Shown here: positions 1,980 to 52,203 of the stretch, one piece after another
How the letters are laid out: each line of letters starts with the position of its first letter
Numbering within the stretch: the stretch's first letter is position 1
IMG/VR virus record: IMGVR_UViG_3300049142_000153
Span: 1 to 55,689 of that record
Reading direction: 5' to 3' (one strand)
Length of the DNA stretch: 55,689 bases
Source: a virus
Taxonomy: Duplodnaviria; Caudoviricetes
Notes under the pieces: generated by a model
Database searches by the model: none
What the model saw: the letters and a program-made list of their open reading frames with translations, nothing else
What the model was told of the DNA's origin: nothing
Program-made: the position numbers and the translations under genes

Positions 1980-2032
1980 CGGCGTAGCTCCCGACATGGG
2001 CGGCGTCTGCCGTCCGTACCCGGGAGGTACCC

Positions 2033-2209
2033 ATGCGCACCGTCAACCGAGTGCTGCGACGGTTCGGGTTTGTCGCACTTCCGCTGCCCCCTACCGCAAA
2101 GATGCTGCGTGAGCACGCGAACGTGCTGGAGACCGCACGGCCTTACGTGCACGGCAGCTTCACGCTTCGGTGGTTGCGCCATGTTGCCGACCTCGTGGAT
2201 GGTGACTGA
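2033..2209 (+). CDS. Hypothetical protein (58 aa, MRTVNRVLRR...)
   Basis: GGGAGGT RBS; TGATG-coupled to terminase small subunit; below the ORF-track cutoff. Confidence 0.55.
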   Translation: MRTVNRVLRRFGFVALPLPPTAKMLREHANVLETARPYVHGSFTLRWLRHVADLVDGD

Positions 2210-2655: not shown

Positions 2656-2663
2656 GAGACCGG

Positions 2664-4373: not shown

Positions 4374-4385
4374 GGAGGTCCGTAA

Positions 4386-5906
4386 GTGCCTATCGATGCC
4401 TCGAAGGTGGAGTCTCCCGGGTGGTGGCTTCAGCGGCTCGGTAAGAAGCTGTTCGACGAGCGTGAGGACTCCAAGGACGCTGACGGCGACGTGGAGCCGG
4501 GTCTCGACACACTGAAGCGCTACGCGGAGAACCGTGCGCCGCTCCCTCGTGTGCCTGGTCTCGACCCTGCGGAGGTCGCTGAGTGGATGAAGGACGCCCG
4601 TACCAACTGGACGTCACTCGTCATCGACTCTCCCGTTGAGCGCATGCACGTCGACGGCTTTCGCTTCGGTGACCCGGACGACGACAGCGACGGAGCGAAG
4701 ACGTCGGACAAGGACGCAAACCGCGTCTGGCAGGAGAACAGCCTCGACGCGGACGCCGACCTCGTCCACTACGGCGCGCTCTCCCAGCGACGGGCGTTCA
4801 CCCTCGTCGAGCGTGGCGACGACGGCCGACCAGTCATCACGCACGAGACTCCACGGCAGGTAGCTGTCGAGCATATGCAGGGGAGCCGGCGAAAGCTCGC
4901 TGCGGGCCTGAAGCTGTGGCGGGACGACTGGACAGGCGACACCCGGGCGACGTTGTGGACCCCGGAGACAATCCATGAGTTCGTCACGAAGACCAACGCT
5001 CCCGTCTTCACCGGTCGCGCGGCTCGGTTGCCGAGCTGGGACGCGTTCTCTCTGCCGAACCAGTCGGACAGTCACCGCCCCAATGACCTGAAGATCGTCC
5101 CCCTCGTCCCGTTCATCAACCGGCGTAACCGCCGGCTCTCTGGCTTCGCGGAGCACGAGGACGTACTCACGGTCCAGAACCGCATCACGCTCTCGCTCAT
5201 CATGACGATCGCGGCGATGAAATACGGCGCGTTCAGGCAGCGTTGGGCCGCGGGCCTGGAGGTCGACGAGGACCCCGTCACCGGGAAGAAGATCCAGCCC
5301 TTCCAGCTGGACATCCGGCGTCTGTGGACGACGGAGGACCCCGAAGTGCGGTTCGGGGAGTTCTCCGCGACCGACCTCATGCCGTACGTCCGGGCCGTCG
5401 AGGCTGCGGTTCAGGACCTCGCGGCCATCTCCAGAACGCCCCCGCATTATTTGATCGGCGCCGTTGTCAACGTCAGCGGCGACGCCCTGAAGGCCGCGGA
5501 GACGGGCCTCGTGAGCAAAGTGCGCGACCGGCAACGCAACTTCGGTGAGTCGTGGGAGCAGACCATGAGGTTGGCGTTCCGCGTCCTGGGCGACGAGACG
5601 AAGGCGACCGCATACACCGCTGAGACGGTCTGGCGTGATCCGGAGTCCCGCTCCATCGCCGAACTTGCCGACGCTGCTGTGAAGAAGGCGACCGCCGGGG
5701 TCCCGTGGCGTCAGCGCATGGAGGACATGGGCTACACCCCCGCGGAGATCTCCCGCATGGAGATCGACCGTGCCGCAGACGCGATGAACGCGCAGACGGC
5801 TACCGACCCCTCGGCTCCGCAACCGACGAACATCGCCGATGCCCGGTCGGCTCGCGACCAGCGGACCGTGATCGGACGGAGCGCGGATGACGCTAACGCG
5901 GCTTGA
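4386..5906 (+). CDS. Portal protein (SPP1 gp6-like)
   Basis: NWTSLVID, AFRQRW and SGDALKAAE motifs; follows TerL. Confidence 0.92.
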   Translation: MPIDASKVESPGWWLQRLGKKLFDEREDSKDADGDVEPGLDTLKRYAENRAPLPRVPGLDPAEVAEWMKDARTNWTSLVIDSPVERMHVDGFRFGDPDDDSDGAKTSDKDANRVWQENSLDADADLVHYGALSQRRAFTLVERGDDGRPVITHETPRQVAVEHMQGSRRKLAAGLKLWRDDWTGDTRATLWTPETIHEFVTKTNAPVFTGRAARLPSWDAFSLPNQSDSHRPNDLKIVPLVPFINRRNRRLSGFAEHEDVLTVQNRITLSLIMTIAAMKYGAFRQRWAAGLEVDEDPVTGKKIQPFQLDIRRLWTTEDPEVRFGEFSATDLMPYVRAVEAAVQDLAAISRTPPHYLIGAVVNVSGDALKAAETGLVSKVRDRQRNFGESWEQTMRLAFRVLGDETKATAYTAETVWRDPESRSIAELADAAVKKATAGVPWRQRMEDMGYTPAEISRMEIDRAADAMNAQTATDPSAPQPTNIADARSARDQRTVIGRSADDANAA

Positions 5907-31396: not shown

Positions 31397-31653
31397 CCAA
31401 ACGAGACACCCTCATCCTCATCCTCACCGGCTCCCTCGCCACCTCCGGCATGGGTCGCTACGAAGAGCACGAAGCACGCGCGGAGCGGCTCGTCGACGAG
31501 GCGCTGAGAGAGCATGCGCACGGGTTGGCGGAGGAGGGCCGGGCGTTCGTCGGGCCGCGCTCCTACCCGCACGAGACGGAGCGCGTGACGCGGTACGTAG
31601 CCGGCTGGCATGACTCTCTGGACCGCATCGACCCGGAGGTGACTGATGCCTGA
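31393..31653 (+). CDS. Small protein, HAHxLA...IDPEV family copy 2
   Basis: Motif shared with neighbours. Confidence 0.7.
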   Translation: MTKRDTLILILTGSLATSGMGRYEEHEARAERLVDEALREHAHGLAEEGRAFVGPRSYPHETERVTRYVAGWHDSLDRIDPEVTDA

Positions 31654-37960: not shown

Positions 37961-39526
37961 GCGGCGCCTTCCACGTCATCGACGACGCATCCGCCCCCGC
38001 ACTTGGCGACATCCGCGACGCCGGCCCCGGTGACCTGATCTACATCCGCCCCGCAGCGACGAGCCGCCGCGACTTCCCGAAGTACTGGGAGGCCGCGGGG
38101 GTCGCGCTGACGCGGGGCGCGCTGGTGAGTGTGTTGAACCGAGAGGAGACAGCGTGAGGGACTCATTCGGCGTCGTGATCCAGGAGGGTGACCGCGTCAT
38201 GTCCGCGTCGACGTCCGGCGGACTGGCGAAGATCGGGACTGTGTACCGGGCGGACAGCGGGCGCCTGATGATGACCGTCGAGCACCCGGAGACGTCGCGC
38301 TCCTACTTCAGCCAGAAGCGCTCACAGATCGGCTCCATGGCGCTCGTCCTACGAAAGGCGGACGGCACCGTGCCGGCGCACGTGACGGGGGAGGTGGCTG
38401 GCTGATGGCGCGCAGCATCGGACACACCGACGAAGAGTGCTTCCGGGTCGTCGAGACGTTCACGCGGGCGGACGGCAGTACCGGTCACCTCACGTGGGGA
38501 CCGTACTCCACGCTCGCGCAGGCGCGGGGGATGCGGACCCGGCAGCGTCGTTGGCTGACGTTCGAGAACTCGGTGTTCACCATCGACCGCGCACCCATCG
38601 CGTGGGAGAACGTCGAGTGACCGGCATCCGCGAACCGGAGATGGTCGTCGTCCGCGCCGTCCCCGACCCGATCCCCGCGGAGTTCACCTTCGACCCCTGC
38701 GTGTACGCCTCTTGGATCACGCCGGAGCTTATGCGGGAGGTGGAGGAGGGGTGACCACCATGGAAGAGCAGTGCGCGAAGCACCGAGCGAAGCTGAGGTC
38801 ACAGCCCTTCGCGACGATCGTCCCGGACCGCAAGCCGCCTGTGAAGTGCCACGCACACATCGGCCTGGCGAAGCTGGCCGTTGGACATGGTGGGTGGCAC
38901 AGCTCCGCCCGCGGGGGCGAGATCTACGAACTGACTGCCGACGGTTGGCGGTTGCTGTACCGAGTCGAGTCGGGGACGTCGACAGGCGCGCTCCCCTGGA
39001 AGGAGAGCCAGTGAGCCGCATCAACATCCACGAGACCAAGACCGGTGACAGCCGACTGGAGATCAACCTCCCCGCGCTCCAGCGAGGCGAAGAGCAGCAC
39101 TCGTTCACCGACGGCGAGGAGCTCGGGGCGGCGTCGACGATCATCGATCTCCTCGACGGGCTCGACAACGGCGAGGCCCTCGTCATCACGCGCGAGATCT
39201 GGTGACGGCGTGGAACAACTCCTGATCGCCGCCGCATCCGTCGCCGTCCAAATCGCACTCACCGTTGCGGCCTTCCTCTGGGCGGCACGGTGCCTGAAGA
39301 AGGAGAAGCAGTGTTCCGAGTAGTCCAGACGCGTGAAGCCTTCGCGTATCCGGAGGGCAAGGTGTGGGGCCCCTACACCGAGCAGCTCGACGCCAACGAC
39401 CGCGTCGCCTTACTCCGCGAGTTCGGTGGTGACGGCGTCATCGAGTCGGGCGAGTTCGGCGCCCCGTGCGGCCTCAACCTCGTCGATGCTGGGGGAGGAG
39501 GTGGAGGTCTCCTGGTCACCGCGTGA
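37957..39526 (+). other. Chain of small, mostly coupled hypothetical genes (37957-38157, 38154-38405, 38405-38620, 38617-38754, 38751-39014, 39011-39205, 39311-39526)
   Basis: GTGA/TGATG overlaps and RBSs; no recognisable functions. Confidence 0.6.
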
Positions 39527-40653: not shown

Positions 40654-41175
40654 ATGGGCGGGATCAGCTTCGCGCCGATACCTGGGACTGACGGTAGGTA
40701 TGTCGCGGATAGCGAGGGGACCCTTTACGGCTTCCGCGGAGCGCTGAAGGCATCCCGTCGTCGCGAACGGCGAGCCAACGGCTCCAAGGGTCATGAGCAC
40801 TTGGGGGTATCCGTCTGCTACATCTCCGGTAAGCGAACGCGCTGGGTTCACCACCTCGTCTACGAGGCATTTCACGGATCGGTCCCTGACGGACAGATGG
40901 TCCGCCACCTGGACGGCGACCCCACGAACAACCGGCTGGAGAACCTCGCAGCCGGGACACACGCAGACAACATGAACGATCGCGACGCCCACGGCACAAC
41001 GGCTCGGGGTGAGCGACACGGCTGCGCCAAGTTGACCGTCGAGCAGGTTTCAGAGATCCGGCGAATCTACGCCGCCGGCGGGATTACACAGGCTGCGCTC
41101 GGTCGGAAGTTCGGCATCAGCCAGGCCATGACGGGATACATCGTGCGCGGCGAGTACTGGAGGGAGTCTGCATGA
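40654..41175 (+). CDS. HNH homing-type endonuclease with C-terminal HTH
   Basis: VHHLV..AF.G...VRHLDGDPTNN...NL...N; AKLT...TQAALGRKFGIS. Confidence 0.88.
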   Translation: MGGISFAPIPGTDGRYVADSEGTLYGFRGALKASRRRERRANGSKGHEHLGVSVCYISGKRTRWVHHLVYEAFHGSVPDGQMVRHLDGDPTNNRLENLAAGTHADNMNDRDAHGTTARGERHGCAKLTVEQVSEIRRIYAAGGITQAALGRKFGISQAMTGYIVRGEYWRESA

Positions 41176-43682
41176 GGCTGTCGGAGATCCTTGGGCGGCT
41201 CGATGGGGTCACGGACGACCACGACGGCTTCCTTGCCCTCTGCCCCGCGCACAAGGACCGGAACACGCCGTCGCTGAAGCTCACGTTGAAGGAGGGCGGG
41301 AAGCTCCTGTTCGTCTGTCGTACGGGCTGCGACAAGGCTGACGTCCTGGCGGCCATGCGCATGCGTGAGGCCGATCTATTCGACGTCGTGAACGACATGG
41401 GCGCACACGCCATCTCAGCGAAGGTACCGGAGTCCGTGAGCGTCGCGGAGATAGCAGGGCTCCGAGCGTTCATCGACGCGGCAGTTGGCAAGCTGGAGCG
41501 CTCCTCGGAGTGGCCGGAGCGTGCCCGTGCCTACGCGTTCGAGCGCTTCGGACTCAGTGCTGAGCAGTGTGCAGATTTGGGCGTCGGCGTGTACGACCCC
41601 GGCGACGCGATGATCAAGCGATCGTGGCTGTCCGGTGCGTTCACCCGGTACCCGAGGCTAACCGTGCCCCTCACAGGGTTCGACGGGGTCGTTCGAGGTC
41701 TCCAGGGGCGTGACCTCTCCGGTAAGTGCCCCGCGCGGTGGGTCTCCCTGACCAACGTCGACGGGAAGACGTGGGCGAAGTATGGCGTCCTCTCTGCCGG
41801 CGCCGGGTACGACACGATCCTTGTGACGGAGGGCCCCGGTGACGGACTGACATCTGTTGGTGTCGGCTACGACGCGCTCATCATCCGCGGTGCCGGGTTG
41901 GCACGGAACGCGGTCCTAGTGGCGGAACTCGTGGAGCACCTCCGCGGGCGTGACGTAGTTCTAGCCTTCGACCCTGACGACGCTGGAGCACGTGGTATCG
42001 GCGCCCTGGCCACGGCGCTAGTCGAGGACGGTAACGCCCCGCGTCAGCTCCCCTTCCCGAACTCTGGGGAGGATCTGACCGCCTGGCGGGAGCGGACGCC
42101 GGACGCGTTCGCGGCAGAGCTGCACCGTGCGGTACGGACGGCAACCGTCGTCGAGCTGGTGGTACCCGCATCGACTCCCGCTCCGTCGCCGGAAGTGGAG
42201 GACAGTCTCCCCGCCACTGACGCGGCTCTGGCGACGATGGACCTGTCCGCCCGGCAGATGTTCGACAACACCGACGTCGGCATTGCCGTCATGCTGCGCG
42301 ACTTCATCGCTCGCGACGGCGGGGGAGTCCGCTACGCCAAGGGGCTCGGCTTCCTTTGCTGGGACGGGAAGGTGTGGGCGCCCGGAGGGGAGAAGGTGCG
42401 CGAGTCGCTACATCTGCTTGGCGCGGAGTTGATCGCGTCGGGTGACGACTCGAAGCGCCGGCTGGCCCTGAAGGCACTTAGCAATCGCAGTATCGACGCA
42501 GTCCTGAAGGAGCTTCCCGCGGTGCCTGGCGTGCCAGTGGACGCCATGTCGTTCGACGCTCATGACGACCTGCTGTCCGTGGCCAACGGGACGATCAACC
42601 TGCGTACGGGGGAGCTTCGTCCGCACAATCCCGCGGACCTGATCACGAAGCGCCTGGAGGTGGCGTACCGCCCGGAGGCGACGGCCGACCGTTGGGAGCA
42701 GTTCCTTCGGGAGGTGTTCCCGAACCACCCGGAGATGCCGTCGTTCGTTCAGCGGCTCACAGGCTATGGGATCACGGGCTACACGAGTGAGCAGCTCTTC
42801 GTGATCCATCACGGAGGCGGCAAGAACGGTAAGACCGTGTACACGTCGACCACGAGCCACGTCTTCAAGGGTGCAGTACAGAACAGCGAGTTCACAACGT
42901 TCGAGAAGACGCCGGAGGAGGGAGCGCCGTCTCCGGGGCTCGCGCGACTTCGCGGGTATCGCATGGTGCTGGCGTCTGAGAGCGAGAAGTATGCGCGGCT
43001 CGCGGAACCACTCATCAAGCGGCTGACCGGCGACGGCAACATCATCACGACTCGGTTCCTGCATCAGAACCCGTTCTCCTACCGCCCCCAGTTCCTCCTT
43101 CAGGTGGAGACGAATTACAAGCCGGCCATCCTTAGCCAGGACTACGGAATCTGGAGGCGCGTAAAGCTCATCCCGTGGGAGGCCGTGTTCGACGGGCCGA
43201 AGCAGGACCCGCAGCTTCAGGCGAAGCTCCGGGCGGAGTCGGAGGGCATCCTCGCGTGGGCCGTGCGCGGATCCGTCGAATGGTTCGCGCACGGGCTGAA
43301 CGAGCCCGCGTCGGTGTCGGCCGCTACGACGGCGTACCGAGAGTCGGAGGATCGACTTCAGGAGTTCCTCAACGCGTGCACCGTTCGTGAGGAGGGCGCC
43401 CGAGTCGCTCCAATGGCCATCCGTCGGACGTATGCGGAGTGGGCGGAGGACGCCGGACTTGACCGCAAGGAGAAGTTGTCCGGCTGGGCACTCGCGGTCG
43501 AACTGGAGAGCCGAGGCTTCAAGAAAGACAAGCGCAAGGGGGCTTGGGGGTTCAACGGTCTACGCCTTATGACGGACGACGAGCGGGCTTTCGCAAGTCG
43601 GCTTGCGGAGGTCGTTGACGAGCCTGCCGACCAACCCACCGCCGACACGGACATCTTCGGGCAGACGAAGGAGGCAGCGTGA
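41172..43682 (+). CDS. DNA primase-helicase (Zn finger, TOPRIM, D5/P4-type SF3 helicase)
   Basis: CPAHKD..C, TEGPGD, DPDDAG, GGGKNGKT, IWRR. Confidence 0.92.
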   Translation: MRLSEILGRLDGVTDDHDGFLALCPAHKDRNTPSLKLTLKEGGKLLFVCRTGCDKADVLAAMRMREADLFDVVNDMGAHAISAKVPESVSVAEIAGLRAFIDAAVGKLERSSEWPERARAYAFERFGLSAEQCADLGVGVYDPGDAMIKRSWLSGAFTRYPRLTVPLTGFDGVVRGLQGRDLSGKCPARWVSLTNVDGKTWAKYGVLSAGAGYDTILVTEGPGDGLTSVGVGYDALIIRGAGLARNAVLVAELVEHLRGRDVVLAFDPDDAGARGIGALATALVEDGNAPRQLPFPNSGEDLTAWRERTPDAFAAELHRAVRTATVVELVVPASTPAPSPEVEDSLPATDAALATMDLSARQMFDNTDVGIAVMLRDFIARDGGGVRYAKGLGFLCWDGKVWAPGGEKVRESLHLLGAELIASGDDSKRRLALKALSNRSIDAVLKELPAVPGVPVDAMSFDAHDDLLSVANGTINLRTGELRPHNPADLITKRLEVAYRPEATADRWEQFLREVFPNHPEMPSFVQRLTGYGITGYTSEQLFVIHHGGGKNGKTVYTSTTSHVFKGAVQNSEFTTFEKTPEEGAPSPGLARLRGYRMVLASESEKYARLAEPLIKRLTGDGNIITTRFLHQNPFSYRPQFLLQVETNYKPAILSQDYGIWRRVKLIPWEAVFDGPKQDPQLQAKLRAESEGILAWAVRGSVEWFAHGLNEPASVSAATTAYRESEDRLQEFLNACTVREEGARVAPMAIRRTYAEWAEDAGLDRKEKLSGWALAVELESRGFKKDKRKGAWGFNGLRLMTDDERAFASRLAEVVDEPADQPTADTDIFGQTKEAA

Positions 43683-45604
43683 AGTACTTCCCCTACACCA
43701 TCGCGGGCGAAGAGACGATGACCCGTGTCCCTGAGACGGCCGCGGACCTCGACGAGTTCCGTCGGTGGGTCGAGCGCATGGCGCGTTCCGGCGAGATGGT
43801 CGGGGCGGACTCGGAGACGACGGGGCTCGACACGTTCTCTCCGACGTACCGCCTGCGGACGGTCCAATTCGGGGACAAGCGTCAGGCGTGGGTGATCTGC
43901 GTCGAGCTTGGGCCGATGTTCGTGGAGGCCGCCCGGTGGGCGCTTCTGACGTTGCCTCGTCTCGTTTTCCACTTCGCTCCCTTCGACTTGCTCGTTATCG
44001 ACCGGCACCTTGGGGTTCCGTTGGCGACGCTAGCCCTGAAGGTGACCGACTCGAAGATTATCGCGCATCTGTTCGATTCGCGACCCAAACACGAGGGTGG
44101 CTACGGACTGAAGCTGAAGGAGCTCTGCGCGCGGGACGTAGACCCGAGCGCGCCGGACACGCAGGAGGATCTGACCGCTGTCTTCCGCTCCATAGGCGAG
44201 ACGAAGGCGACGGGTTGGGCAAAGATCGACATCAACCACCCGACGTATCTCCAGTACGCGGGCCTGGACGCGATCCTCGTGTCCCGGTGGCTCCCGATCG
44301 GGGAGGCGCGGCTCCGTAAGGTCGGCGTGCGTCAAACACTCGTGGACTTCGAGCACCGCGTGATGTACGTGTGTGCGCTCATGGAGCGTCGCGGAATGCT
44401 CGTCGATCAGGACTACGTGCGCCCGCTCGTCGAGCGGCTTCAGGAGGAGGCAGAGCTCCACGCCGGCAAGGCTCGCCAGTACGGCGTAACGAGCGTCAAC
44501 GCCCCGGCGCAGGTCTCCGCGGCCCTCGTCGGCATGGGGGAGACCCTGACGGAGAAGACGGACTCCGGGAACCTGAAGGTGGACAAGGAAGTTCTTCAGG
44601 CCCTGGCAGACGTCGACCGGGATTGGGAGCGCATCGGGGCGCGGAAGCCCAACCCCCTGGCGGACGCGGTCCTTCGCTCGAAGCGCGCAGGCAAGTGGGC
44701 GAAGTCCTACGGCGTGGCCATGCGTGACGGCGTCGACGTCGACGGCCGCATCCATCCGAAGGTGAACAGTCTCCAGGCCAGGACAGCGCGTATGTCTATC
44801 TCTGGTCCTCCGCTCCAGCAACTCCCGTCGGGAGACTGGACGATCCGTCGCGCGCTACTGGCGGACCCCGGGCACCGCATCTTCTCCGTCGACTACAGCG
44901 CGGTGGAGATGCGCGTCCTTGCCGCCCTGGCGGACGAGAAGACGATGAAGAAGGCCATTGCGGAGGGCCGTGACCTCCATGACTTCACCGCGGAACTCAT
45001 CTGGGGTCCCGACTTCACGAAGGCGCACCGCAAGATGGGCAAGGGGGTCGGCTTCGGCAAGGTGTACGGAGGTGGCGCAACGACGCTGAGTCGGCAGACC
45101 GGCGCACCGATCGACGAAGTCAAGGTGGCCATTGCGGCATACGACCGCGTGTACCCGGGGATCAAGCGCTACTCGCGCGAAGTCCAGCGTAAGGCACGCG
45201 CCAACGGCTACGTCGTCATCACGCCGACCGGCCGGCGCCTCGCCCTGGACCGGGACCGCGTCTATGCGGCGACGAACTACGCCGTGCAGAGCACCGCGCG
45301 TGACGTGCTGTGTCAAGCGCTGCTCAACATGCACGACAAGGGGCTGACGGAGTACCTCCTCCTGCCGATCCACGACGAGGTTCTCGGGTCTGCGCCCGCG
45401 GACATCGTCCACGACGTGTCACGGGAGGTGGCGGAGACGATGACCATGAACTTCTTCGGAGTTCCGCTCGACGCGGACCTTGACGGCGCCGTGGGTGGCC
45501 GCTCGTGGGGGTCTCTCTACATGAAGACCTCTGACGGGAAGATCGACGGCGCCCTCCGTGTACGCGAGGACGAGTGGTACGCGAGCGTGGGACTGGCCGC
45601 GTGA
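43679..45604 (+). CDS. Family A DNA polymerase with 3'-5' exonuclease
   Basis: DSETTGL, DYSAVEMR, R..GK...FG..YG, IHDE. Confidence 0.95.
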   Translation: MKYFPYTIAGEETMTRVPETAADLDEFRRWVERMARSGEMVGADSETTGLDTFSPTYRLRTVQFGDKRQAWVICVELGPMFVEAARWALLTLPRLVFHFAPFDLLVIDRHLGVPLATLALKVTDSKIIAHLFDSRPKHEGGYGLKLKELCARDVDPSAPDTQEDLTAVFRSIGETKATGWAKIDINHPTYLQYAGLDAILVSRWLPIGEARLRKVGVRQTLVDFEHRVMYVCALMERRGMLVDQDYVRPLVERLQEEAELHAGKARQYGVTSVNAPAQVSAALVGMGETLTEKTDSGNLKVDKEVLQALADVDRDWERIGARKPNPLADAVLRSKRAGKWAKSYGVAMRDGVDVDGRIHPKVNSLQARTARMSISGPPLQQLPSGDWTIRRALLADPGHRIFSVDYSAVEMRVLAALADEKTMKKAIAEGRDLHDFTAELIWGPDFTKAHRKMGKGVGFGKVYGGGATTLSRQTGAPIDEVKVAIAAYDRVYPGIKRYSREVQRKARANGYVVITPTGRRLALDRDRVYAATNYAVQSTARDVLCQALLNMHDKGLTEYLLLPIHDEVLGSAPADIVHDVSREVAETMTMNFFGVPLDADLDGAVGGRSWGSLYMKTSDGKIDGALRVREDEWYASVGLAA

Positions 45605-46992: not shown

Positions 46993-47793
46993 ATGAGCCG
47001 AGACGACATCAGCACCGAGCAGATCCGCGCGGCTCAGACGGGCGACTCCGACGCCATGTGGGCCGTCGTCCAGGGCTGCGACGCCATGCTCCGCGGGATC
47101 GTCCGCAGCGTCGCCCCGGGAGCCAGTGCGGAGGACGCGGAGGACTACCTCCAGGAAGCGCGAGTCACTCTCATTCAGCACGTGCGCGACTACGACTCGG
47201 AAGGGTCCGCAGCGAAGCTGACGTCATACGTCTACCGTGCCGCCCGGCGAGCCGTCACGGCCGCGCACATCGCGAACACCTGCGCCGTCACCGTCCCCGC
47301 CACGGCCACGATCACCATCCGTCATCTCCTGTGGAGCCACGCAGGCGACGTGGAGAAGGTGTGGGCGGAGCTCCAGGAGGAGAAGAGCGCGACGCACAGG
47401 ATCTCTCGGGAGATGTTCGTCGCCATCCTCGAAGCAATCACGGAGTCGACCAGCCTCGACGCTTCCGCGGGAGGGGAAGACGCGGACGGGTCGAACCTCA
47501 CCCTTGCCGACGTCATCGCCGACCCCTCGTCGGAGCCGACTGACGCCATCGAGCGCAGGGACTACGCCCGGTGGCTCATGACGCAGATCCCGCAGCGCCA
47601 GTCCTTCGCGCTTCGTGCCTTCTACGGCGTCAACATGACCTCGATGACGGACGCGGAGGCCGCAAACACGATGGGCGTCAAGCTCAACAACCTCCGTCAA
47701 CTGCGAAGCGCAGGGTGCACCAGTGCCCGCAAGGTCGCCGCGACGTTCCGCCAGATCCACACCGAGACCGCCCCGCTTTCCGCAGCAGCGTGA
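46993..47793 (+). CDS. Phage-encoded sigma70-family RNA polymerase sigma factor
   Basis: AQTGD..A, EDYLQEA...V.DYD (region 2), SLD...TLAD.I.D (region 3), region 4 HTH. Confidence 0.85.
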   Translation: MSRDDISTEQIRAAQTGDSDAMWAVVQGCDAMLRGIVRSVAPGASAEDAEDYLQEARVTLIQHVRDYDSEGSAAKLTSYVYRAARRAVTAAHIANTCAVTVPATATITIRHLLWSHAGDVEKVWAELQEEKSATHRISREMFVAILEAITESTSLDASAGGEDADGSNLTLADVIADPSSEPTDAIERRDYARWLMTQIPQRQSFALRAFYGVNMTSMTDAEAANTMGVKLNNLRQLRSAGCTSARKVAATFRQIHTETAPLSAAA

Positions 47794-47827
47794 AGCACTA
47801 CCACCCCTTCGAACTGGAGCAACGACC

Positions 47828-47974
47828 ATGAACCGACTTCCCTCCCTCGACGACTACGACCTCCAAGGCGTGCGCCTCGACGAGGCCGCCCTGTGGGGTG
47901 ACGACGTGAGGTACGCAGTCGAGGCCCGTTCCGACTCAACGCCCCTCGACGGCTTTTCCGTCGAGCAGTTCTGA
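47828..47974 (+). CDS. Small acidic hypothetical protein
   Basis: GGAG RBS; followed by operator. Confidence 0.5.
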   Translation: MNRLPSLDDYDLQGVRLDEAALWGDDVRYAVEARSDSTPLDGFSVEQF

Positions 47975-48023
47975 CACCAACGCAAAACGTTTAGCGGTAC
48001 TGACAAGCACACGAGGAGAGAAC

Positions 48024-48557
48024 ATGACTGAGTACGTCGCCAAGTGCAGCTCTGGCGTTCGGGACACCATCACGGCCCGCGTCGACGGTTCGTCCATCGA
48101 GCTGAAGGCTGCGCACGAAGGGGGCCGAAAGCTGGAGATCTACCTCTACGAGGACGACGCCCGCACCTTCGCCCGCGGCATCCTCGCACTAGCCGACGAG
48201 CTCGACGGGGAAGAGGTGGCGGAGGCTGCTCCGAAGCGCGCGGTCAAGGTCGGTGACCGGGTGCGGATCACTCGAAACCACGTAATGGACGGAGACGAGA
48301 ACCTCGGAACTGTAGGCCAGCTGTCGCGCATCGACGCCGGCGACCTCGTGTACCCGTACCTCGTCGAGCTGCCCGACGGCATCGAGTGGTGGTGTGTGAA
48401 GGTCGAGCTCGTCGACGCGCCGGAGCCCGCGCCGGTCGACGCCCCCTCGTCCGCCTTCGCCGGCCTCGTCACGCAGGCGAAGCAGCTGCTCGAAGGCACC
48501 GCGCACAACGGCGCGGACATCATCACCCTCGCGCGCGAGATGGCCGACCGGGTGTAG
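48024..48557 (+). CDS. Hypothetical protein
   Basis: GAGGAG RBS; flanked by operators. Confidence 0.7.
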   Translation: MTEYVAKCSSGVRDTITARVDGSSIELKAAHEGGRKLEIYLYEDDARTFARGILALADELDGEEVAEAAPKRAVKVGDRVRITRNHVMDGDENLGTVGQLSRIDAGDLVYPYLVELPDGIEWWCVKVELVDAPEPAPVDAPSSAFAGLVTQAKQLLEGTAHNGADIITLAREMADRV

Positions 48558-48603
48558 CGCAAAACGTTTAGCGGTACCGACAGTCACTCACAGAGGAGAG
48601 AGC

Positions 48604-49023
48604 ATGTACGCGGAAGAGACGCTGGGCGAGTACGAGGACGACGGCACCATGCCGGACAACGTGGACAAGCTGAGAGAGTCCGTCGTCGGTCACCGCATCG
48701 TCAAGGCGGAGGAGGTGGAGGTCCAGACTCGGTGGGGCGGCTCTGAGAAGGCACTCGTCATCACCCTGGACAACGGCAAGTGCGTGGAGCTCCAGGGCTC
48801 CAACGACTGTTGTGCGTACACGGAGCTGGAGAGCTTCCTTCTCCACGCGGACCGTGTCGACCACATCATTACCGGAGTCGGTACCACCGACGGGTTCGCT
48901 ACATGGCACATATTCGCCGACATGGGCGACGTCCTCGAACTGTCGGTGGGGTGGAGCTCCGGGAACCCCTTCTACTACGGCTACGGGTTCAACATCAGCG
49001 TCAGGGAGCTGACGAGCCAGTAG
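48604..49023 (+). CDS. Hypothetical protein (DCCA motif)
   Basis: GAGGAG RBS; flanked by operators. Confidence 0.7.
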   Translation: MYAEETLGEYEDDGTMPDNVDKLRESVVGHRIVKAEEVEVQTRWGGSEKALVITLDNGKCVELQGSNDCCAYTELESFLLHADRVDHIITGVGTTDGFATWHIFADMGDVLELSVGWSSGNPFYYGYGFNISVRELTSQ

Positions 49024-49076
49024 CGCAAAACGTTTGTCGCTAGGTGTTGTGGTGGCCGACTCATCTATGCCATAGT
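49021..49076 (+). promoter_or_regulatory. Operator plus promoter cassette 1 (TTGTGG-N18-CATAGT)
   Basis: About 56-bp repeat, four copies. Confidence 0.75.
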
Positions 49077-49142
49077 CATCACACCGCAAGGCACTAACGC
49101 AGCGGGGCGCCTCACACGGGGCGCCCCAGGGGAGGGGACGAG

Positions 49143-49397
49143 ATGAGCACCAGCACGGTTCGCGAAGAGGCTCAGTCCACGATTCAGACGCTGTCCGCCA
49201 AGCTCACCAACGAAGCCCTGTGCCTCGCGTGGATGGGTACCGAGGGCAAGCCTGCCACTCAAGAACTCGCCATAGTACGCGGTTGGATCATGGATGAGCT
49301 GAACCGCCGTCTCGGAGACGACCTGTTCGACGAATGGCTGATGGATGTCGACGAGAACGGCGACGGCGTTACTCCGCTCGCCTACTTGACGCAGTAG
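49143..49397 (+). CDS. Hypothetical protein
   Basis: GGAGGGG RBS downstream of cassette 1. Confidence 0.65.
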   Translation: MSTSTVREEAQSTIQTLSAKLTNEALCLAWMGTEGKPATQELAIVRGWIMDELNRRLGDDLFDEWLMDVDENGDGVTPLAYLTQ

Positions 49398-49405
49398 GAG
49401 ACGTC

Positions 49406-49591
49406 ATGCCGAAGAACCGGGTCGCCTTCCTGGCGCTTGAGGGGGGCGGCATGGGCGCCGGGGAGCTTCTATGCCTCACCGGATTCGTGCGCTGTGCACG
49501 CTGTGGGTTCGTAGTCCACAGCGAGAGGCTCGACGAGCTGCCCGAGCACTATTGCGCTCGGCGGCTAGAGCTTCGCCGCACATCCGACTGA
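49406..49591 (+). CDS. Small Cys/His-containing hypothetical protein
   Basis: AGGAG RBS; CARC...HYC; stop 2 nt before the ribozyme. Confidence 0.55.
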   Translation: MPKNRVAFLALEGGGMGAGELLCLTGFVRCARCGFVVHSERLDELPEHYCARRLELRRTSD

Positions 49592-49593
49592 TA

Positions 49594-49655
49594 GCCGAAA
49601 CGCCCTCCGGGGCGTCCGCGGGGAATGGCCTACCCGCGCTGAGGAGGCAGGCCGT
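49594..49655 (+). ncRNA. Type II hammerhead ribozyme with loop I pseudoknot
   Basis: gcc-GAAA-cgccc(uccg)gggcg-UC^-cgcggg(gaauggccua)cccgcg-CUGAGGA-ggc-aggccgu; all core nucleotides and stems intact. Confidence 0.9.
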
Positions 49656-49665
49656 AGGAGGACAG

Positions 49666-49875
49666 ATGGCGGACATAGGCGAGCGTGCCGAGGACTTGAA
49701 GTCGGGCGACCTGATCGTGTGTAACGACGGCGATTACTGGCTTCGGGTCATCGAGATTCGCAGGCTGGTGCCGAACGTGGTCGACGTGGTGACACACCTC
49801 CGTCAGAGTCCCGGCGGGCCGCACCATGTCATGCACTACAGCCCAGACGACCGCGTAGAGATCGTCCGATTCTGA
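49666..49875 (+). CDS. Hypothetical protein (AEDL..GD, SH3-like)
   Basis: AGGAGG RBS directly after the ribozyme. Confidence 0.65.
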   Translation: MADIGERAEDLKSGDLIVCNDGDYWLRVIEIRRLVPNVVDVVTHLRQSPGGPHHVMHYSPDDRVEIVRF

Positions 49876-49880
49876 AGCCC

Positions 49881-49951
49881 GCCCCGTCTAGGTAAGCCTG
49901 ACCGACACCCCCAGTGCCGGCGGGCGCGCGGTTCGACTCCGCGGCGGGACA
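49881..49951 (+). ncRNA. tRNA-like element / degenerate tRNA
   Basis: T arm cgcgg-TTCGACT-ccgcg; 6/7 acceptor pairs; shrunken D arm; non-canonical anticodon arm. Confidence 0.45.
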
Positions 49952-49979
49952 CTCGTAGAGATCCACGTCAGGAGGTCCC

Positions 49980-50141
49980 ATGTTGAAGCGCATCCTCGAC
50001 CGTCGACACCCGAACGCCGCTCGCGCGCAGGACGTCGCGCGGGAAGAAGCGGACGGTCGATTCGACTACCGGTCCCCGGAAGGCCGTCGACTCGTGACCG
50101 CCAACCGGGCATACCTGGCCCTGCACCCCGAGTGGAAATAG
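49980..50141 (+). CDS. Small hypothetical protein
   Basis: AGGAGG RBS. Confidence 0.55.
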   Translation: MLKRILDRRHPNAARAQDVAREEADGRFDYRSPEGRRLVTANRAYLALHPEWK

Positions 50142-50150
50142 GAGGTGTCC

Positions 50151-50303
50151 ATGCGCCGCACCCCCAACGACTCCGCCGTCCGAGCAGCCTTCGACCGTTT
50201 CCACGCGACGGCGAGCACGAACCGTAAGTCGGCCGTCGAGAAACTCCACAACGACATGCAGCGTGCCGGCGGACCGACGCCGACGCGGGACGAGGAGAAG
50301 TGA
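50151..50303 (+). CDS. Small hypothetical protein
   Basis: AGGAGG RBS. Confidence 0.55.
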   Translation: MRRTPNDSAVRAAFDRFHATASTNRKSAVEKLHNDMQRAGGPTPTRDEEK

Positions 50304-50405
50304 CCGTGGACAGCATCCGAATTGCAGCCGCATGGGCCTTCATGCTCGTCGCCGGCCTGGCGTCGTGGGCCCTCGTCGCCCTGGCCGTGCGCGGCGTCGG
50401 CTGAG

Positions 50406-50461
50406 TAGCGCAAAACGTTTATCGCTAGGTGTTGTGGTGGTCGACTCATCTGTGGCATAGT
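50406..50461 (+). promoter_or_regulatory. Operator plus promoter cassette 2
   Basis: TTGTGG-N18-CATAGT. Confidence 0.75.
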
Positions 50462-50496
50462 CAGAGCAACGCAAGGCACTCACGAAGGAGAACAAC

Positions 50497-50748
50497 ATGA
50501 ACGCCAGCGTCGCCATCATCAACGGCCGCACCTTCCGCCCTGTCATCCGCGACTTCTTCACCGTCGACGGCATCGTGAACGACTTCCGCAACGCCGGCAC
50601 CCGCGCTGACGCCATCGCCGACGTTGCCCGCATCTACGGAGTCGACAACCGCCGCGCTTTCCTGATCGCCCGCCACTTCATGAACCGCACCCTCCGCCTT
50701 CGCGCCATCCTCGACGCCGACCGTCGCCCTGTGCACCACATGGTGTGA
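50497..50748 (+). CDS. Hypothetical protein
   Basis: AAGGAG RBS; lies between promoter and hairpin. Confidence 0.65.
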   Translation: MNASVAIINGRTFRPVIRDFFTVDGIVNDFRNAGTRADAIADVARIYGVDNRRAFLIARHFMNRTLRLRAILDADRRPVHHMV

Positions 50749-50761
50749 TCCGGAACTTCCC

Positions 50762-50796
50762 AAGAGCCCCTGTCAATTGCGGAGACAGGGGCTCTT
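50762..50796 (+). terminator. Hairpin with ATTGCGG loop
   Basis: aagagcccctgtc/gacaggggctctt. Confidence 0.65.
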
Positions 50797-50826
50797 CCCG
50801 TAGTGCGAGTCACTCCAGGAGGAGCC

Positions 50827-51039
50827 ATGACCGAGAGAGCCGAAGAGCTGCACATCACCGCTGGCGAGATCCGTCAGGGCGACGTCTTCACCCTCCACAC
50901 CCACGAGCGCACGGCGCTCCGCGACGCGTGGCCCGTACTGTTCCGCGGGCACGTCTACATCCGGTTCGAGGGCGGGGGAGGGGCGACGATCCCAGCGGAC
51001 CGCCCCCTGACCGTCACGCGCACCGTGGCCACGGCGTGA
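50827..51039 (+). CDS. Hypothetical protein
   Basis: AGGAGG RBS. Confidence 0.6.
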   Translation: MTERAEELHITAGEIRQGDVFTLHTHERTALRDAWPVLFRGHVYIRFEGGGGATIPADRPLTVTRTVATA

Positions 51040-51212
51040 TGTACCGCCTGACGTTCGAGGGCGGGTCGACGTACCTCGTCGACGACGTGGCCCAACGCCA
51101 CTTCCTCCGCCAGGCGGTGAGGCGCGGGGACGAGCTGACGAGGGTCCGGGGCGGGTACGTGGTGACGCTGGTTGGCCGGCGGAGTAGGCGAGTGGCGTTG
51201 ATCGCCGAGTAG
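51039..51212 (+). CDS. Hypothetical protein
   Basis: TGATG-coupled; TAG stop begins an operator copy. Confidence 0.55.
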   Translation: MYRLTFEGGSTYLVDDVAQRHFLRQAVRRGDELTRVRGGYVVTLVGRRSRRVALIAE

Positions 51213-51266
51213 CGCAAAACGTTTGTCGCTGAGGTGTTGTGGTGGTCGACTCATTCATGCCATGAT
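51210..51266 (+). promoter_or_regulatory. Operator plus promoter cassette 3
   Basis: TTGTGG-N18-CATGAT. Confidence 0.75.
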
Positions 51267-51303
51267 GACGGCACAGCGAGAGGCACTCACGAAGGAGCGG
51301 GAC

Positions 51304-51555
51304 ATGAACCAGACCGTCATCGACATCATGCGGGAGATTGGCACGGACGAGTGTGTGGCCGCCATTGAGCCGGAGTTCACGGAGGAAGAGGAGCGCCTCC
51401 TCGACGCGACGGCGAAGAACACGGCGAAGATGAACCTCGGTCAGCTCCAGGGCTACCGGGACGCCTACGCGCCCAGCAGCTTCCACGGCCGCACCCGTGA
51501 GGACGAGCTGTGCTACGAGGCCATTGTCCGAGAGCTCGCCCGTCGCGCTGCCTGA
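51304..51555 (+). CDS. Hypothetical protein
   Basis: AAGGAG RBS. Confidence 0.65.
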   Translation: MNQTVIDIMREIGTDECVAAIEPEFTEEEERLLDATAKNTAKMNLGQLQGYRDAYAPSSFHGRTREDELCYEAIVRELARRAA

Positions 51556-51561
51556 CCACCT

Positions 51562-51598
51562 GCGGAGCCCCTGTCAATTGCGGTGACGGGGGCTCCGC
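51562..51598 (+). terminator. Hairpin with ATTGCGG loop
   Basis: gcggagcccctgtca/tgacgggggctccgc. Confidence 0.65.
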
Positions 51599-51603
51599 TG
51601 GAG

Positions 51604-51659
51604 TAGCGCAAAACGTTTGTCGCTAGGTGTTGTGGTGGCCGACTCATCTATGTCATAGT
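51604..51659 (+). promoter_or_regulatory. Operator plus promoter cassette 4
   Basis: TTGTGG-N18-CATAGT. Confidence 0.75.
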
Positions 51660-51693
51660 TAGGGCAACGCAAGGCACTAACGGAGGAGCGAAC

Positions 51694-52203
51694 ATGAGCA
51701 CGTCGACTATCACCCTGGAAGACGAAATCAACTTCGACACCAATCGCTATGAGCGCGTCGCCCTCGTCGACGTTCAGCCCGGCGACGCCGTACGCATACC
51801 GACGCTGATCATCGACGGTGAGGTCGCGTCGTGGTCCGTCAGGGCCTACACCGTCGAGAGCGTCGAGGAGAAGGCGCCGGGCGTCTTCTTTGTCTGGCGT
51901 CCGGCCGACGAGTTCCCGCCCACGACGACCTGCGACCGGTTCATGATGATGTGCGGTCCGTCCGCCCGCGCGGGAGTGCTGCGCGTAAAGCGTGTCACCC
52001 TCGTCGACGACAACGACAAGATCTGGGCGACGACGAAGAGCAACCCGGAGCTCTCCCACGCGTTCGACAGTGAGCACCGCGCGCTGTGCCGCACGACCAT
52101 CCGCCCCGGAAGCCCGTTCAGGACCACGCTCGCCATGGCGCGGGACATGGTGAAGCTGCACGAGCAGTGCGCGCGCAAGCTGTTCGCGATGGGCGCCGTC
52201 TAG
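51694..52203 (+). CDS. Hypothetical protein
   Basis: GGAGGAG RBS. Confidence 0.65.
   Translation: MSTSTITLEDEINFDTNRYERVALVDVQPGDAVRIPTLIIDGEVASWSVRAYTVESVEEKAPGVFFVWRPADEFPPTTTCDRFMMMCGPSARAGVLRVKRVTLVDDNDKIWATTKSNPELSHAFDSEHRALCRTTIRPGSPFRTTLAMARDMVKLHEQCARKLFAMGAV

What the first reader, a model, noticed from the sequence alone, without database searches (positions are those of the whole stretch)
49617..49951. One ORF bracketed by a ribozyme and a tRNA-like element: possible RNA-processing unit
Seen: hammerhead, RBS, 69-aa ORF (49666-49875), then a tRNA-like fold starting 5 nt after the stop. Inference: hammerhead cleavage and RNase P/Z cutting at the tRNA mimic would excise a discrete monocistronic mRNA of about 264 nt. 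This would be post-transcriptional segmentation of a phage early operon by two different RNA elements. I do not know of this arrangement being described, and it is the most speculative claim here.
Basis: inference. Interest (0 to 1): 0.72.

Follow-up and report, generated by a model that had tools for sequence, protein, structure and literature searches.

The report
Ribozyme–gene–tRNA-like module in Streptomyces prophages
A self-cleaving hammerhead RNA, a small gene and a degenerate tRNA-shaped RNA form a unit that recurs in related Streptomyces prophages with different genes inside, so it probably cuts a long phage transcript into single-gene messages, though no cleavage has been shown.

Summary
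Rfam finds one type II hammerhead at 49593-49656 (40.5 bits, cut-off 37). Its core is intact and it should cleave between 49616 and 49617. A Shine-Dalgarno site (49657-49661) and the ATG of a 69-aa ORF (49666-49875) follow directly. A tRNA-shaped element ("TL", 49881-49951) starts 5 nt after the stop.

TL is not a decoding tRNA. The Rfam tRNA model finds nothing in the window at E<=10. The acceptor stem and T arm are canonical, the D arm is gone, and the "anticodon arm" is a long bulged hairpin with a near-invariant C-rich pentaloop.

TL defines an undescribed RNA family of 29 distinct copies, all in Streptomyces (pro)phages. Eight of its 24 base pairs show compensatory changes.

Of 24 distinct TL loci, 18 carry a hammerhead or hammerhead relic upstream on the same strand, and no complete one lies downstream. 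Fifteen have exactly hammerhead, one ORF, then TL, with 13 unrelated ORF families as cargo.

Hammerhead punctuation of prophage genes was proposed in 2011. The TL family and its place at the end of the hammerhead cassettes are new.

RNase P/Z cutting at TL is inferred. Low-depth RNA-seq from phage Samy shows only a coverage break just after TL.

The parts
49406..49591 (+). Upstream small ORF (61 aa counted from the ATG at 49406). Its stop TGA at 49589-49591 abuts the hammerhead.
   Evidence: In the relatives the hammerhead likewise begins at or next to a stop codon (alignment A2).
49593..49656 (+). Type II hammerhead ribozyme. Stem II is 49594-49596 with 49646-49648. GAAA lies at 49597-49600. 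Stem III is 49600-49615. Stem I is 49617-49622 with 49633-49638. The core CUGAGGA lies at 49639-49645. The pseudoknot is 49627-49631 with 49649-49653.
   Evidence: RF02276 at 40.5 bits against a gathering score of 37. On 16 copies, 98.8% of cells are paired, 6 pairs carry compensatory changes, and 0 of 500 shuffles reach the covariation score.
49616..49617 (+). Predicted self-cleavage site, after GUC. It would leave a 2',3'-cyclic phosphate on 49616 and a 5'-OH on 49617.
   Evidence: The position follows from the Rfam alignment. The chemistry of the ends comes from established hammerhead knowledge. Cleavage was not tested.
49657..49661 (+). Shine-Dalgarno GGAGG, 3 nt after the pseudoknot tail and 4 nt before the ATG.
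   Evidence: All 17 gathering-level hammerheads listed there are followed directly by a G-rich Shine-Dalgarno motif (mostly GGAGGAG) and a start codon.
49666..49875 (+). 69-aa ORF, the cargo of the module. No Pfam or PHROG family matches it. Its homologue in L009 (34% identity, E 7e-7) lies after TL instead of before it.
49881..49951 (+). TL, a tRNA-derived and non-decoding structured RNA. The acceptor stem is 49881-49887 with 49944-49950 (C2.A71 mismatch in this copy). The long arm has a lower stem of 49896-49900 with 49921-49925 and an upper stem of 49902-49908 with 49914-49920. The pentaloop CCCCA lies at 49909-49913. The T stem is 49927-49931 with 49939-49943. The T loop UUCGACU lies at 49932-49938. 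The discriminator is A49951.
   Evidence: Model R1 scores it at 85.2 bits. The structure count on 29 copies gives 97.1% paired and 8 compensatory pairs. The minimum-energy fold of the isolated element gives the same architecture. RF00005 gives no hit.
49970..50141 (+). Next cistron: Shine-Dalgarno AGGAGG at 49970-49975 and a 53-aa ORF at 49980-50141, which starts 28 nt after TL. The same protein family sits behind a hammerhead in L023 and L005.

Best explanation
The window carries one copy of a recurrent RNA 'punctuation' module of PhiC31/Samy-like Streptomyces temperate phages, of the form [hammerhead-SD-ORF]n-TL. It sits in the run of small genes downstream of the DNA polymerase and the sigma-like gene.

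Step 1 is strongly supported by sequence, though cleavage itself is not shown. The type II hammerhead cuts the polycistronic RNA between 49616 and 49617. The upstream RNA then ends in the stem III hairpin with a cyclic phosphate. The downstream RNA begins with a 5'-OH and the stem I hairpin, and the Shine-Dalgarno site of the 69-aa ORF follows directly.

Step 2 is inferred. TL keeps exactly the part of a tRNA that RNase P, RNase Z and the CCA-adding enzyme recognise: a 7-bp acceptor stem stacked on a 5-bp T stem, plus a canonical T loop. It has lost the decoding half. TL is therefore cut out like a tRNA, 5' of G49881 and 3' of A49951. That gives the last cistron of the hammerhead array its 3' end, gives the next cistron a short leader, and releases a tRNA-like RNA of about 71 nt (71-77 nt in relatives).

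TL lies downstream of every complete hammerhead copy found in the loci examined. It therefore supplies the boundary that a further hammerhead would otherwise supply.

Step 3 is speculative. The near-invariant C-rich pentaloop implies that the released TL also has a function of its own.
For: Hammerhead. Rfam passes its gathering score. The core is intact. Stem I and the pseudoknot covary.

TL as a selected RNA. There are 29 distinct copies. 97.1% of cells are paired. Eight of 24 pairs change on both sides, against 1.1 +/- 1.0 in shuffles (0 of 500 reach the observed value). Slid controls give 39-52% paired. The acceptor and T arms are nearly invariant while the flanking ORFs are unrelated. A typical copy folds at z = -2.9.

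Linkage. Eleven of 24 distinct TL loci have a hammerhead at Rfam gathering level upstream on the same strand. Seven more have a hammerhead relic found by the family model R2. Samy has a relic of the 5' half. Both TL loci found later through TL alone (L042, L043) also have a hammerhead. No complete hammerhead lies downstream of TL. Only weak 5'-half relics do, in L004 and L019 (17 bits).

Architecture. Fifteen of 24 loci have exactly hammerhead, one ORF, then TL, with the stop 5-13 nt before G1. The cargo comes from 13 ORF families. Five families occur both behind a hammerhead and behind TL. Five further loci show the same layout. The next start codon lies 23-33 nt after TL, or a hairpin follows.

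RNA. In Samy (TL at L011 5296-5371), stranded run X15 shows depth 13-21 over the upstream gene. Depth tapers through TL and is 0 from 5397 to 5519. Run X16 is 0 in 5397-5437 and rises again downstream.
Against: No RNA end has been mapped at any hammerhead or TL. The lay gave no pile of ends, and depth was at most 21. The coverage hole could reflect poor reverse transcription through a GC-rich tRNA-like fold. Reads do cross the mRNA-TL junction (depth 6.7, then 3.5), so the 5' cut is at best partial, or absent.

The window's own TL is a weaker copy. It has a C2.A71 mismatch and an A.C pair in the hairpin, and it scores 85 bits against a typical ~100. Its fold has z = -0.68, and in longer context an alternative register competes.

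The two elements are separable. TL occurs with no hammerhead or relic in 5 of 24 loci (L006, L008, L013, L032, L033). Phage Paedore has 9 hammerheads in 6 kb and no TL. Only 4 of 76 other hammerhead-bearing viral loci have TL.

Many of the linked hammerheads look dead: U4C in L024, G12A in L007, and a lost 5' half in others.

The near-invariant pentaloop is not needed for a mere processing signal.

The loci share ancestry, so the counts are not independent events. Alignment A3 was fitted to the model's structure.
Confidence: 0.5

Rival explanations
1. TL is not cut off. It is a 3'-terminal structure, either a U-tract-less terminator or an exonuclease block, that ends or stabilises the transcript of the last cassette.
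For: In Samy run X15, coverage runs into TL and stops right after it, and the downstream gene is silent. In AbbeyMikolon, L006, L020, L023 and L027 a hairpin follows TL and no ORF follows within 90 nt. TL always lies at the 3' end of the hammerhead array.
Against: In 17 of 24 loci a Shine-Dalgarno site and start codon follow TL within 23-33 nt on the same strand (88 nt in L006), so read-through or re-initiation is needed. A plain hairpin would suffice for this role, which leaves the canonical T loop, the 7+5-bp tRNA geometry and the pentaloop unexplained. By established knowledge of minihelix substrates, a folded acceptor/T minihelix is expected to be an RNase P substrate anyway.
Confidence: 0.2
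2. TL is chiefly a stand-alone tRNA-like small RNA: a regulator acting through its C-rich loop, or a decoy for a tRNA-binding host factor. Its position next to hammerheads only reflects both elements living in the same cassette region.
For: The pentaloop is CCCCA in 28 of 29 copies and CCCCU in one, and its closing pair covaries (A-U to G-C in 3 copies). TL occurs without a hammerhead in 5 of 24 loci. PhiC31 has a tRNA-family element with an aberrant anticodon arm in the same syntenic slot and no hammerhead.
Against: No target or partner has been identified. The strict order (no complete hammerhead downstream of TL) and the 5-13-nt spacing to the preceding stop are not predicted by this view. 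It is compatible with, rather than exclusive of, the processing model, because release of the sRNA needs the same cuts.
Confidence: 0.2
3. TL is a working decoder tRNA: Gly-CCC as annotated in AbbeyMikolon, or Thr-AGU as ARAGORN calls it in the window.
For: ARAGORN calls a tRNA in most copies. AbbeyMikolon's copy is annotated tRNA-Gly. The acceptor stem, T arm and discriminator are intact.
Against: RF00005 finds nothing in the window at E<=10 or in the Samy and AbbeyMikolon loci at E<=1, although it finds Samy's four true tRNAs. There is no D stem. The region between the acceptor stem and the hairpin varies in length by indels. The loop closes to 5 nt through covarying pairs, and there is no U33. 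ARAGORN's anticodon calls disagree: Thr, Gly, '???', and no call at all in L003, L009, L048 and L077.
Confidence: 0.03
4. Both elements are mainly DNA-level joints, short conserved boundary sequences at which homologous recombination shuffles gene cassettes. RNA activity is vestigial.
For: ORF families swap positions relative to the hammerhead and TL. Dead hammerheads keep the 3' tail, Shine-Dalgarno site and ATG. Half-hammerhead relics abut TL in Samy and AbbeyMikolon.
Against: Compensatory changes preserve RNA pairing in both elements. Eleven of 24 loci keep a hammerhead that passes Rfam's gathering score. Recombination at the repeats can be a by-product of RNA function.
Confidence: 0.07

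Closest known systems
Type II hammerhead ribozymes flanking genes in prophages (Rfam RF02276; Perreault et al. 2011, PMC3088659, passages read)
   Same: Same ribozyme class, including the pseudoknot between loop I and the 3' tail. Same context of small prophage genes flanked singly or in short blocks. The same processing into single-gene mRNAs was proposed there.
   Different: Here the array ends in a tRNA-derived element. In this clade the ribozyme's 3' tail runs straight into the Shine-Dalgarno site and ATG. In the passages I read, that paper does not mention a tRNA-like partner or Streptomyces ('Streptomyces' 0 hits; 'tRNA' 1 hit, in the reference list).
tRNA punctuation of polycistronic transcripts (animal mitochondria), and bacterial or phage operons that co-transcribe tRNAs with mRNAs cut by RNase P. 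This comparison is recalled knowledge, not a call.
   Same: A tRNA-shaped RNA sits directly between cistrons (5 nt after a stop, 28 nt before the next start), so tRNA-processing enzymes would set the mRNA ends.
   Different: TL is not a decoding tRNA and has no other obvious job. It is paired with a self-cleaving ribozyme on the other side of the cistron. Processing is untested.
MALAT1/mascRNA-type tRNA-like 3'-end elements, and the tRNA-like domain of tmRNA. Recalled knowledge.
   Same: The acceptor and T arms are kept, the D stem is lost or reduced, and the anticodon arm is replaced by another helix. In MALAT1, RNase P makes the 3' end of the upstream RNA and releases a small tRNA-like RNA.
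   Different: Those systems are eukaryotic nuclear (MALAT1) or a trans-translation RNA (tmRNA). I found no sequence relation: Rfam gave no hit other than the hammerhead at E<=10 in 49400-50200, apart from one chance-level riboswitch match.
PhiC31 unannotated tRNA-family element at 31424-31510, between gp13 and gp14
   Same: Same syntenic slot downstream of the polymerase and the sigma-like gene. The acceptor and T arms are canonical, the anticodon arm is aberrant and extended, and the 3' trailer is similar.
   Different: It keeps a canonical D arm and passes RF00005 (53.6 bits). Its terminal loop is GAAA, not CCCCA. It scores only 24 bits with the TL model R1. PhiC31 has no hammerhead.

Membership tests
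Hammerhead ribozyme type II (RF02276) | Score at or above Rfam's gathering threshold | tested here: met
   40.5 bits against 37, with the full model 1-66 matched.
Hammerhead ribozyme type II (RF02276) | Conserved catalytic core: CUGANGA, GAAA, the A15.1-U16.1 pair and an NUH cleavage triplet | tested here: met
   CUGAGGA at 49639-49645, GAAA at 49597-49600, A49600-U49615, and GUC at 49614-49616.
Hammerhead ribozyme type II (RF02276) | Three stems with stem II open, plus a tertiary pseudoknot between loop I and the 3' tail | tested here: met
   On 16 copies, 98.8% of cells are paired. Four of the 6 stem I pairs and 1 pseudoknot pair carry compensatory changes.
Hammerhead ribozyme type II (RF02276) | Self-cleavage activity | not testable with these tools
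   Needs in vitro transcription or in vivo end mapping.
tRNA (RF00005) | Match to the tRNA covariance model | tested here: not met
   No hit at E<=10 in 49400-50200 or in the whole window. The Samy and AbbeyMikolon copies are also missed at E<=1.
tRNA (RF00005) | D arm and a 7-nt anticodon loop with U33 | tested here: not met
   The region between the acceptor stem and the hairpin varies in length by indels and has no conserved D stem. The loop closes to the pentaloop CCCCA through covarying pairs.
tRNA (RF00005) | 7-bp acceptor stem, 5-bp T stem and a UUCRANY-type T loop | tested here: met
   Acceptor cells are 98.5% paired and T stem cells 100% paired. The T loop UUCGAAU is near-invariant, and reads UUCGACU in the window.
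RNase P / RNase Z substrate (tRNA-like punctuation element) | Endonucleolytic cuts at G1 and after the discriminator | tested here: inconclusive
   Samy RNA-seq shows depth falling to 0 just 3' of TL in two runs. Reads cross the 5' junction, no end piles were seen, and depth is at most 21.
TL family (defined here; models R1 and A3) | Match to R1, with acceptor stem, bulged long arm carrying a C-rich pentaloop, and T arm | tested here: met
   The window scores 85.2 bits (E about 1e-16) over the full model. It deviates from the consensus by a C2.A71 mismatch and one A.C pair.

The most novel reading that the evidence does not exclude
The phage releases TL as a stable, tRNA-processed small RNA. 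Its C-rich pentaloop acts on a host or phage target: either G-rich ribosome-binding sites or a tRNA-binding host factor such as a defence nuclease. The hammerheads and TL together would then form a two-enzyme system (ribozyme plus host tRNA machinery) that defines interchangeable single-gene expression cassettes, and the repeated RNA elements would double as the recombination joints that shuffle them.
Probability: 0.2. Interest if true: 0.8.

Novelty: new variant of a known kind. Interest (0 to 1): 0.6.

Why it matters
If the cuts occur as predicted, these phages delimit mRNAs with two unrelated RNA devices: a self-cleaving ribozyme at the 5' side and a tRNA mimic handled by host tRNA enzymes at the 3' side.

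That would be a bacterial-virus counterpart of mitochondrial tRNA punctuation. It would also give hammerheads a concrete and testable job in phage biology, which has been an open question since they were found in prophages in 2011.

The module is compact (about 65 + 71 nt) and tolerates at least 13 unrelated ORF families as cargo. It could therefore serve as a natural insulator or processing part for polycistronic expression in Streptomyces.

The TL family is absent from Rfam. It is unannotated in Samy and annotated as tRNA-Gly in AbbeyMikolon, so genome annotations need correcting.

The nine unannotated hammerheads in the cultured phage Paedore (host S. lividans) offer a tractable system for the ribozyme half.

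Tried and rejected
Canonical tRNA. Rejected; see the membership test.

PhiC31's annotated tRNA-Thr (40702-40777) as a relative of TL. Rejected. It is an ordinary tRNA.

An att site or integrase-linked tRNA fragment. Rejected. TL lies mid-operon, far from any integrase, and its RNA pairs covary.

RNAalifold's alternative fold (a small GGC/GCC hairpin plus a hairpin over alignment columns 47-60). One of its pairs breaks in AbbeyMikolon, where my lower stem shows a compensatory change. I kept the lower-stem model. The D-region pairing remains uncertain.

A general link between hammerhead arrays and tRNAs. Not found. ARAGORN calls a tRNA in 5 of 76 other hammerhead-bearing viral loci, and one of those calls is TL itself. 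TL occurs in 4 of the 76.

Host origin of TL. The best host hits of model R1 are tRNA-Glu(CUC) genes at 31-41 bits. This is a suggestive ancestry only.

Promoter and terminator consensus scan of 47800-51800. It found no promoter-like site and one minus-strand terminator-like site, no more than in shuffles. It is uninformative for phage-specific promoters.

Pfam and PHROGs for the 69-aa, 53-aa and 50-aa ORFs. No family matched.

Literature. Four searches found no paper describing a hammerhead with a tRNA-like partner, or hammerheads in Streptomyces phages:
- 'hammerhead' + 'tRNA-like' + 'prophage'
- 'hammerhead ribozyme' + 'Streptomyces' + 'phage'
- 'tRNA-like' / 'RNase P' / 'polycistronic' / 'bacteriophage' / 'mRNA processing'
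- the PhiC31 terminator title
The PhiC31 genome paper (PMC148434) is not held. The 1995 PhiC31 terminator paper was not among the results. Either could bear on the PhiC31 element. The Samy paper (PMC11302927; passages read) mentions 4 tRNAs and no ribozyme. Its S3 Table, which lists genes expressed in lysogens, is a supplement I could not open, and it may say whether SAMYPH_72 is one of them.

Distribution in genomes. Pattern scans found TL in 14 viral-contig stretches and in 10 genome contigs, all titled Streptomyces. In a sample of 151 Streptomyces genomes, 5 matched R1 at E<=1e-4. One of these is a host tRNA-Glu, and two are the seed genomes.

Rows dropped before counting. L011, L012, L022 and L030 are exact duplicates of L001, L008, L013 and L004. 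L094 (35.9 bits) fell below the E cut-off used for A3.
Full report
WHAT IS IN THE WINDOW

The window is an IMG/VR provirus record of 55,689 nt. Its nearest named relative is Streptomyces phage Samy.

Around the finding, the + strand carries a family-A DNA polymerase (43679-45604), a sigma-factor-like gene (46993-47793) and then a run of small ORFs. This is the order of PhiC31 gp11, gp12, gp13 and onward.

Rfam finds one gathering-level RNA in the whole window, a type II hammerhead at 49593-49656 (40.5 bits, cut-off 37). Reading the sequence:
- The catalytic core is intact: GAAA, the A15.1-U16.1 pair, the GUC triplet and CUGAGGA.
- The cut is predicted between 49616 and 49617.
- The stop codon of the upstream ORF (49589-49591) abuts the ribozyme.
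- The ribozyme's 3' tail is followed within 3 nt by GGAGG (49657-49661) and then the ATG at 49666.

The 69-aa ORF ends at 49875 and has the codon-position GC pattern of the window's known genes.

Five nucleotides later ARAGORN calls a 'tRNA-Thr(agt)' at 49881-49952. The drawn cloverleaf is poor. The Rfam tRNA model finds nothing at E<=10 in the region or in the whole window.

THE tRNA-LIKE ELEMENT (TL) IS A CONSERVED RNA FAMILY

The same element is found in the following places:
- In Samy, where it is unannotated. Samy's four true tRNAs lie elsewhere, and RF00005 finds only those.
- In AbbeyMikolon, where it is annotated tRNA-Gly and is followed by a strong terminator hairpin.
- In IMG/VR contigs and in 10 Streptomyces genome contigs.
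- In two more genomes of a 151-genome Streptomyces sample.

After removing exact duplicates, 24 distinct copies were aligned (A1), and later 29 (A3).

The structure that fits all copies has these parts:
- A 7-bp acceptor stem.
- A single-stranded linker with a conserved AGG.
- A long arm made of a lower stem (GCCC/GGGC type), a 5'-side bulge of variable length, and an upper stem.
- One unpaired nucleotide.
- A 5-bp T stem with a canonical T loop.
- A discriminator A.
- No encoded CCA.

On A3, 97.1% of cells pair. Eight of 24 pairs show changes on both sides, against 1.1 +/- 1.0 in shuffles (0 of 500). Slid controls give 39-52% paired. A3 was fitted to the model, which favours the structure. 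The independent MAFFT alignment A1 gave 96.7% paired and 3 compensatory pairs, all from AbbeyMikolon.

The loop-closing pair covaries (A-U in 24 copies, G-C in 3), and the next pair, C-G, is fixed. The loop is therefore a pentaloop, CCCCA in 28 of 29 copies and CCCCU in L077.

The minimum-energy fold of a typical copy reproduces the architecture (-45.3 kcal/mol, z = -2.9). The window's copy folds the same way but more weakly (z = -0.68), because it carries a C2.A71 mismatch and an A.C pair.

ARAGORN's anticodon calls disagree among copies: Thr, Gly, '???' or no call.

I conclude that TL is tRNA-derived. It is kept for its acceptor/T-arm half and for a C-rich hairpin loop, and it does not decode.

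PhiC31 holds an unannotated RF00005 match (53.6 bits) in the same syntenic slot. That element has normal D and T arms but an over-long anticodon arm. A tRNA-derived element at this position therefore looks older than the TL family itself.

THE HAMMERHEADS

Sixteen distinct copies from the TL loci were aligned (A2). 98.8% of cells pair. Four of the 6 stem I pairs and one pseudoknot pair show compensatory changes. None of 500 shuffles reaches the covariation score.

All 17 gathering-level copies listed are followed directly by a G-rich Shine-Dalgarno motif (mostly GGAGGAG) and a start codon. Most begin at or next to a stop codon.

LINKAGE

Among the 24 distinct TL loci:
- 11 have a hammerhead at Rfam gathering level upstream on the same strand.
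- 7 more have a hammerhead-like element found by the family model R2. By eye these carry core defects or have lost the 5' half, yet they keep the 3' tail, Shine-Dalgarno site and ATG.
- Samy has a relic of the 5' half that abuts TL.
- 5 have none: L006, L008, AbbeyMikolon (L013), L032 and L033.

Both loci found later through TL alone (L042, L043) also have an intact-looking hammerhead.

No locus has a complete hammerhead downstream of TL. Only weak half-relics lie about 1 kb downstream in L004 and L019.

Fifteen of the 24 loci have exactly hammerhead, one ORF, then TL. The stop lies 5-13 nt before G1, and the cargo comes from 13 ORF families. Five more loci show the same layout.

Five ORF families occur behind a hammerhead in one phage and behind TL in another. 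The window's 69-aa ORF, for example, lies after TL in L009. The window's post-TL 53-aa ORF lies behind a hammerhead in L023 and L005.

Approached from the hammerhead side, the ribozyme is far more widespread than TL. Of the 76 new loci examined, 4 have TL, and all 4 belong to the Streptomyces-type hammerhead subfamily. ARAGORN calls a tRNA in only 5 of the 76.

The cultured phage Paedore has nine unannotated gathering-level hammerheads between small genes within 6 kb, and no TL.

The two elements are therefore separable. Where both occur, their order is fixed and TL closes the array.

RNA EVIDENCE

I could lay reads only once and chose Samy, for which RNA runs exist. Samy has TL plus a dead hammerhead relic.

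TL lies at L011 5296-5371. In stranded run X15, depth is 13-21 over the upstream gene. It then falls to 6.7, 3.5 and 0.6 through TL, and it is 0 from 5397 to 5519. In X16, depth is 0 in 5397-5437 and rises again to 7-8 downstream. No end piles were reported, and total laid reads were 47-119 per raw-read run.

This fits an RNA discontinuity at the 3' side of TL. It cannot distinguish termination, processing and reverse-transcription bias, and it says nothing firm about a cut 5' of TL.

HOW IT MOST LIKELY WORKS

Shown by sequence and comparison: an apparently active ribozyme is fused to a translation start, and a selected tRNA-shaped RNA follows the stop.

Inferred: self-cleavage makes the 5' end at 49617. 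The retained acceptor/T-arm minihelix and T loop are the established recognition features of RNase P, RNase Z and the CCA-adding enzyme, so TL is excised like a tRNA. That gives the last cassette its 3' end and gives the next ORF a leader of about 28 nt.

The logic of TL always closing the array is that every other cassette gets its 3' end from the next hammerhead.

The near-invariant pentaloop is not explained by processing alone and points to an added function for the released RNA.

I put about 0.5 on the processing model as stated. The rivals and their weights are listed separately.

COMPARISON AND NOVELTY

Hammerheads flanking single prophage genes, and the idea that they cut long phage transcripts into single-gene mRNAs, are in print (Perreault et al. 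2011, PMC3088659; passages read). tRNA punctuation, and tRNA-like elements that form 3' ends, are known elsewhere (recalled knowledge).

My searches found no description of the following:
- the TL family itself;
- its fixed position at the end of hammerhead-SD-ORF cassettes;
- the tight fusion of ribozyme tail and ribosome-binding site in this clade;
- the tRNA-family element in PhiC31's gp13-gp14 gap.

This is a new variant of a known kind. It is not a new principle, and its key biochemical step is untested.

Noticed in passing
L018 (PhiC31 NC_001978) 31424-31510, + strand: An unannotated match to the Rfam tRNA model (53.6 bits) lies between gp13 and gp14. It has canonical acceptor, D and T arms but about 17 extra nt in the anticodon arm. 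It occupies the same syntenic slot as TL.
   Followed up: partly
L158 (Streptomyces phage Paedore NC_054671, 46569-52637, reverse complement) 1693-5737: Nine type II hammerheads at or above Rfam's gathering score lie within 6 kb. Each sits in a gap between small hypothetical genes, and none is annotated. No TL is present. This is a cultured, tractable system for hammerhead punctuation.
   Followed up: partly
L001 (Samy) 2976-3001 and L013 (AbbeyMikolon) about 2463-2478: A relic of the hammerhead 5' half (the stem III hairpin) lies directly against TL, as if the ribozyme's 3' half and the cargo ORF had been deleted.
   Followed up: partly
L024 6198-6287; L007 5800-5887 (-); L010 3900-3992 (-); L029 23-112; L023 8702-8787; L028 6276-6365 (-); L020 2499-2578 (-): These hammerheads have core defects (U4 to C, G12 to A, a 3-nt insertion) or have lost the 5' half. 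They still keep the 3' tail, Shine-Dalgarno site and ATG nearly unchanged. The translation-start part therefore outlives the ribozyme.
   Followed up: partly
L084, L114, L119, L105, L116 (IMG/VR contigs): Arrays of 4-6 type II hammerheads occur within a few kb in lower-GC viral contigs that have neither TL nor any tRNA call.
   Followed up: no
L037, L038, L039, L044 (Streptomyces genomes): The best host matches to the TL model are tRNA-Glu(CUC) genes in Gln/Glu tRNA arrays (31-41 bits). One copy, in L044, even shares TL's 3' trailer CUCGAAG. This may hint at the ancestry of TL.
   Followed up: partly
window 38037-38123, - strand: A weak match to the TL model R1 (16.7 bits, E 0.2-0.5). I take it to be chance.
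   Followed up: no
window 49426-49504, + strand: A sub-threshold Rfam match to the Magnesium-II riboswitch (14.1 bits against a gathering score of 40, E 5.5), inside an ORF. I take it to be chance.
   Followed up: no
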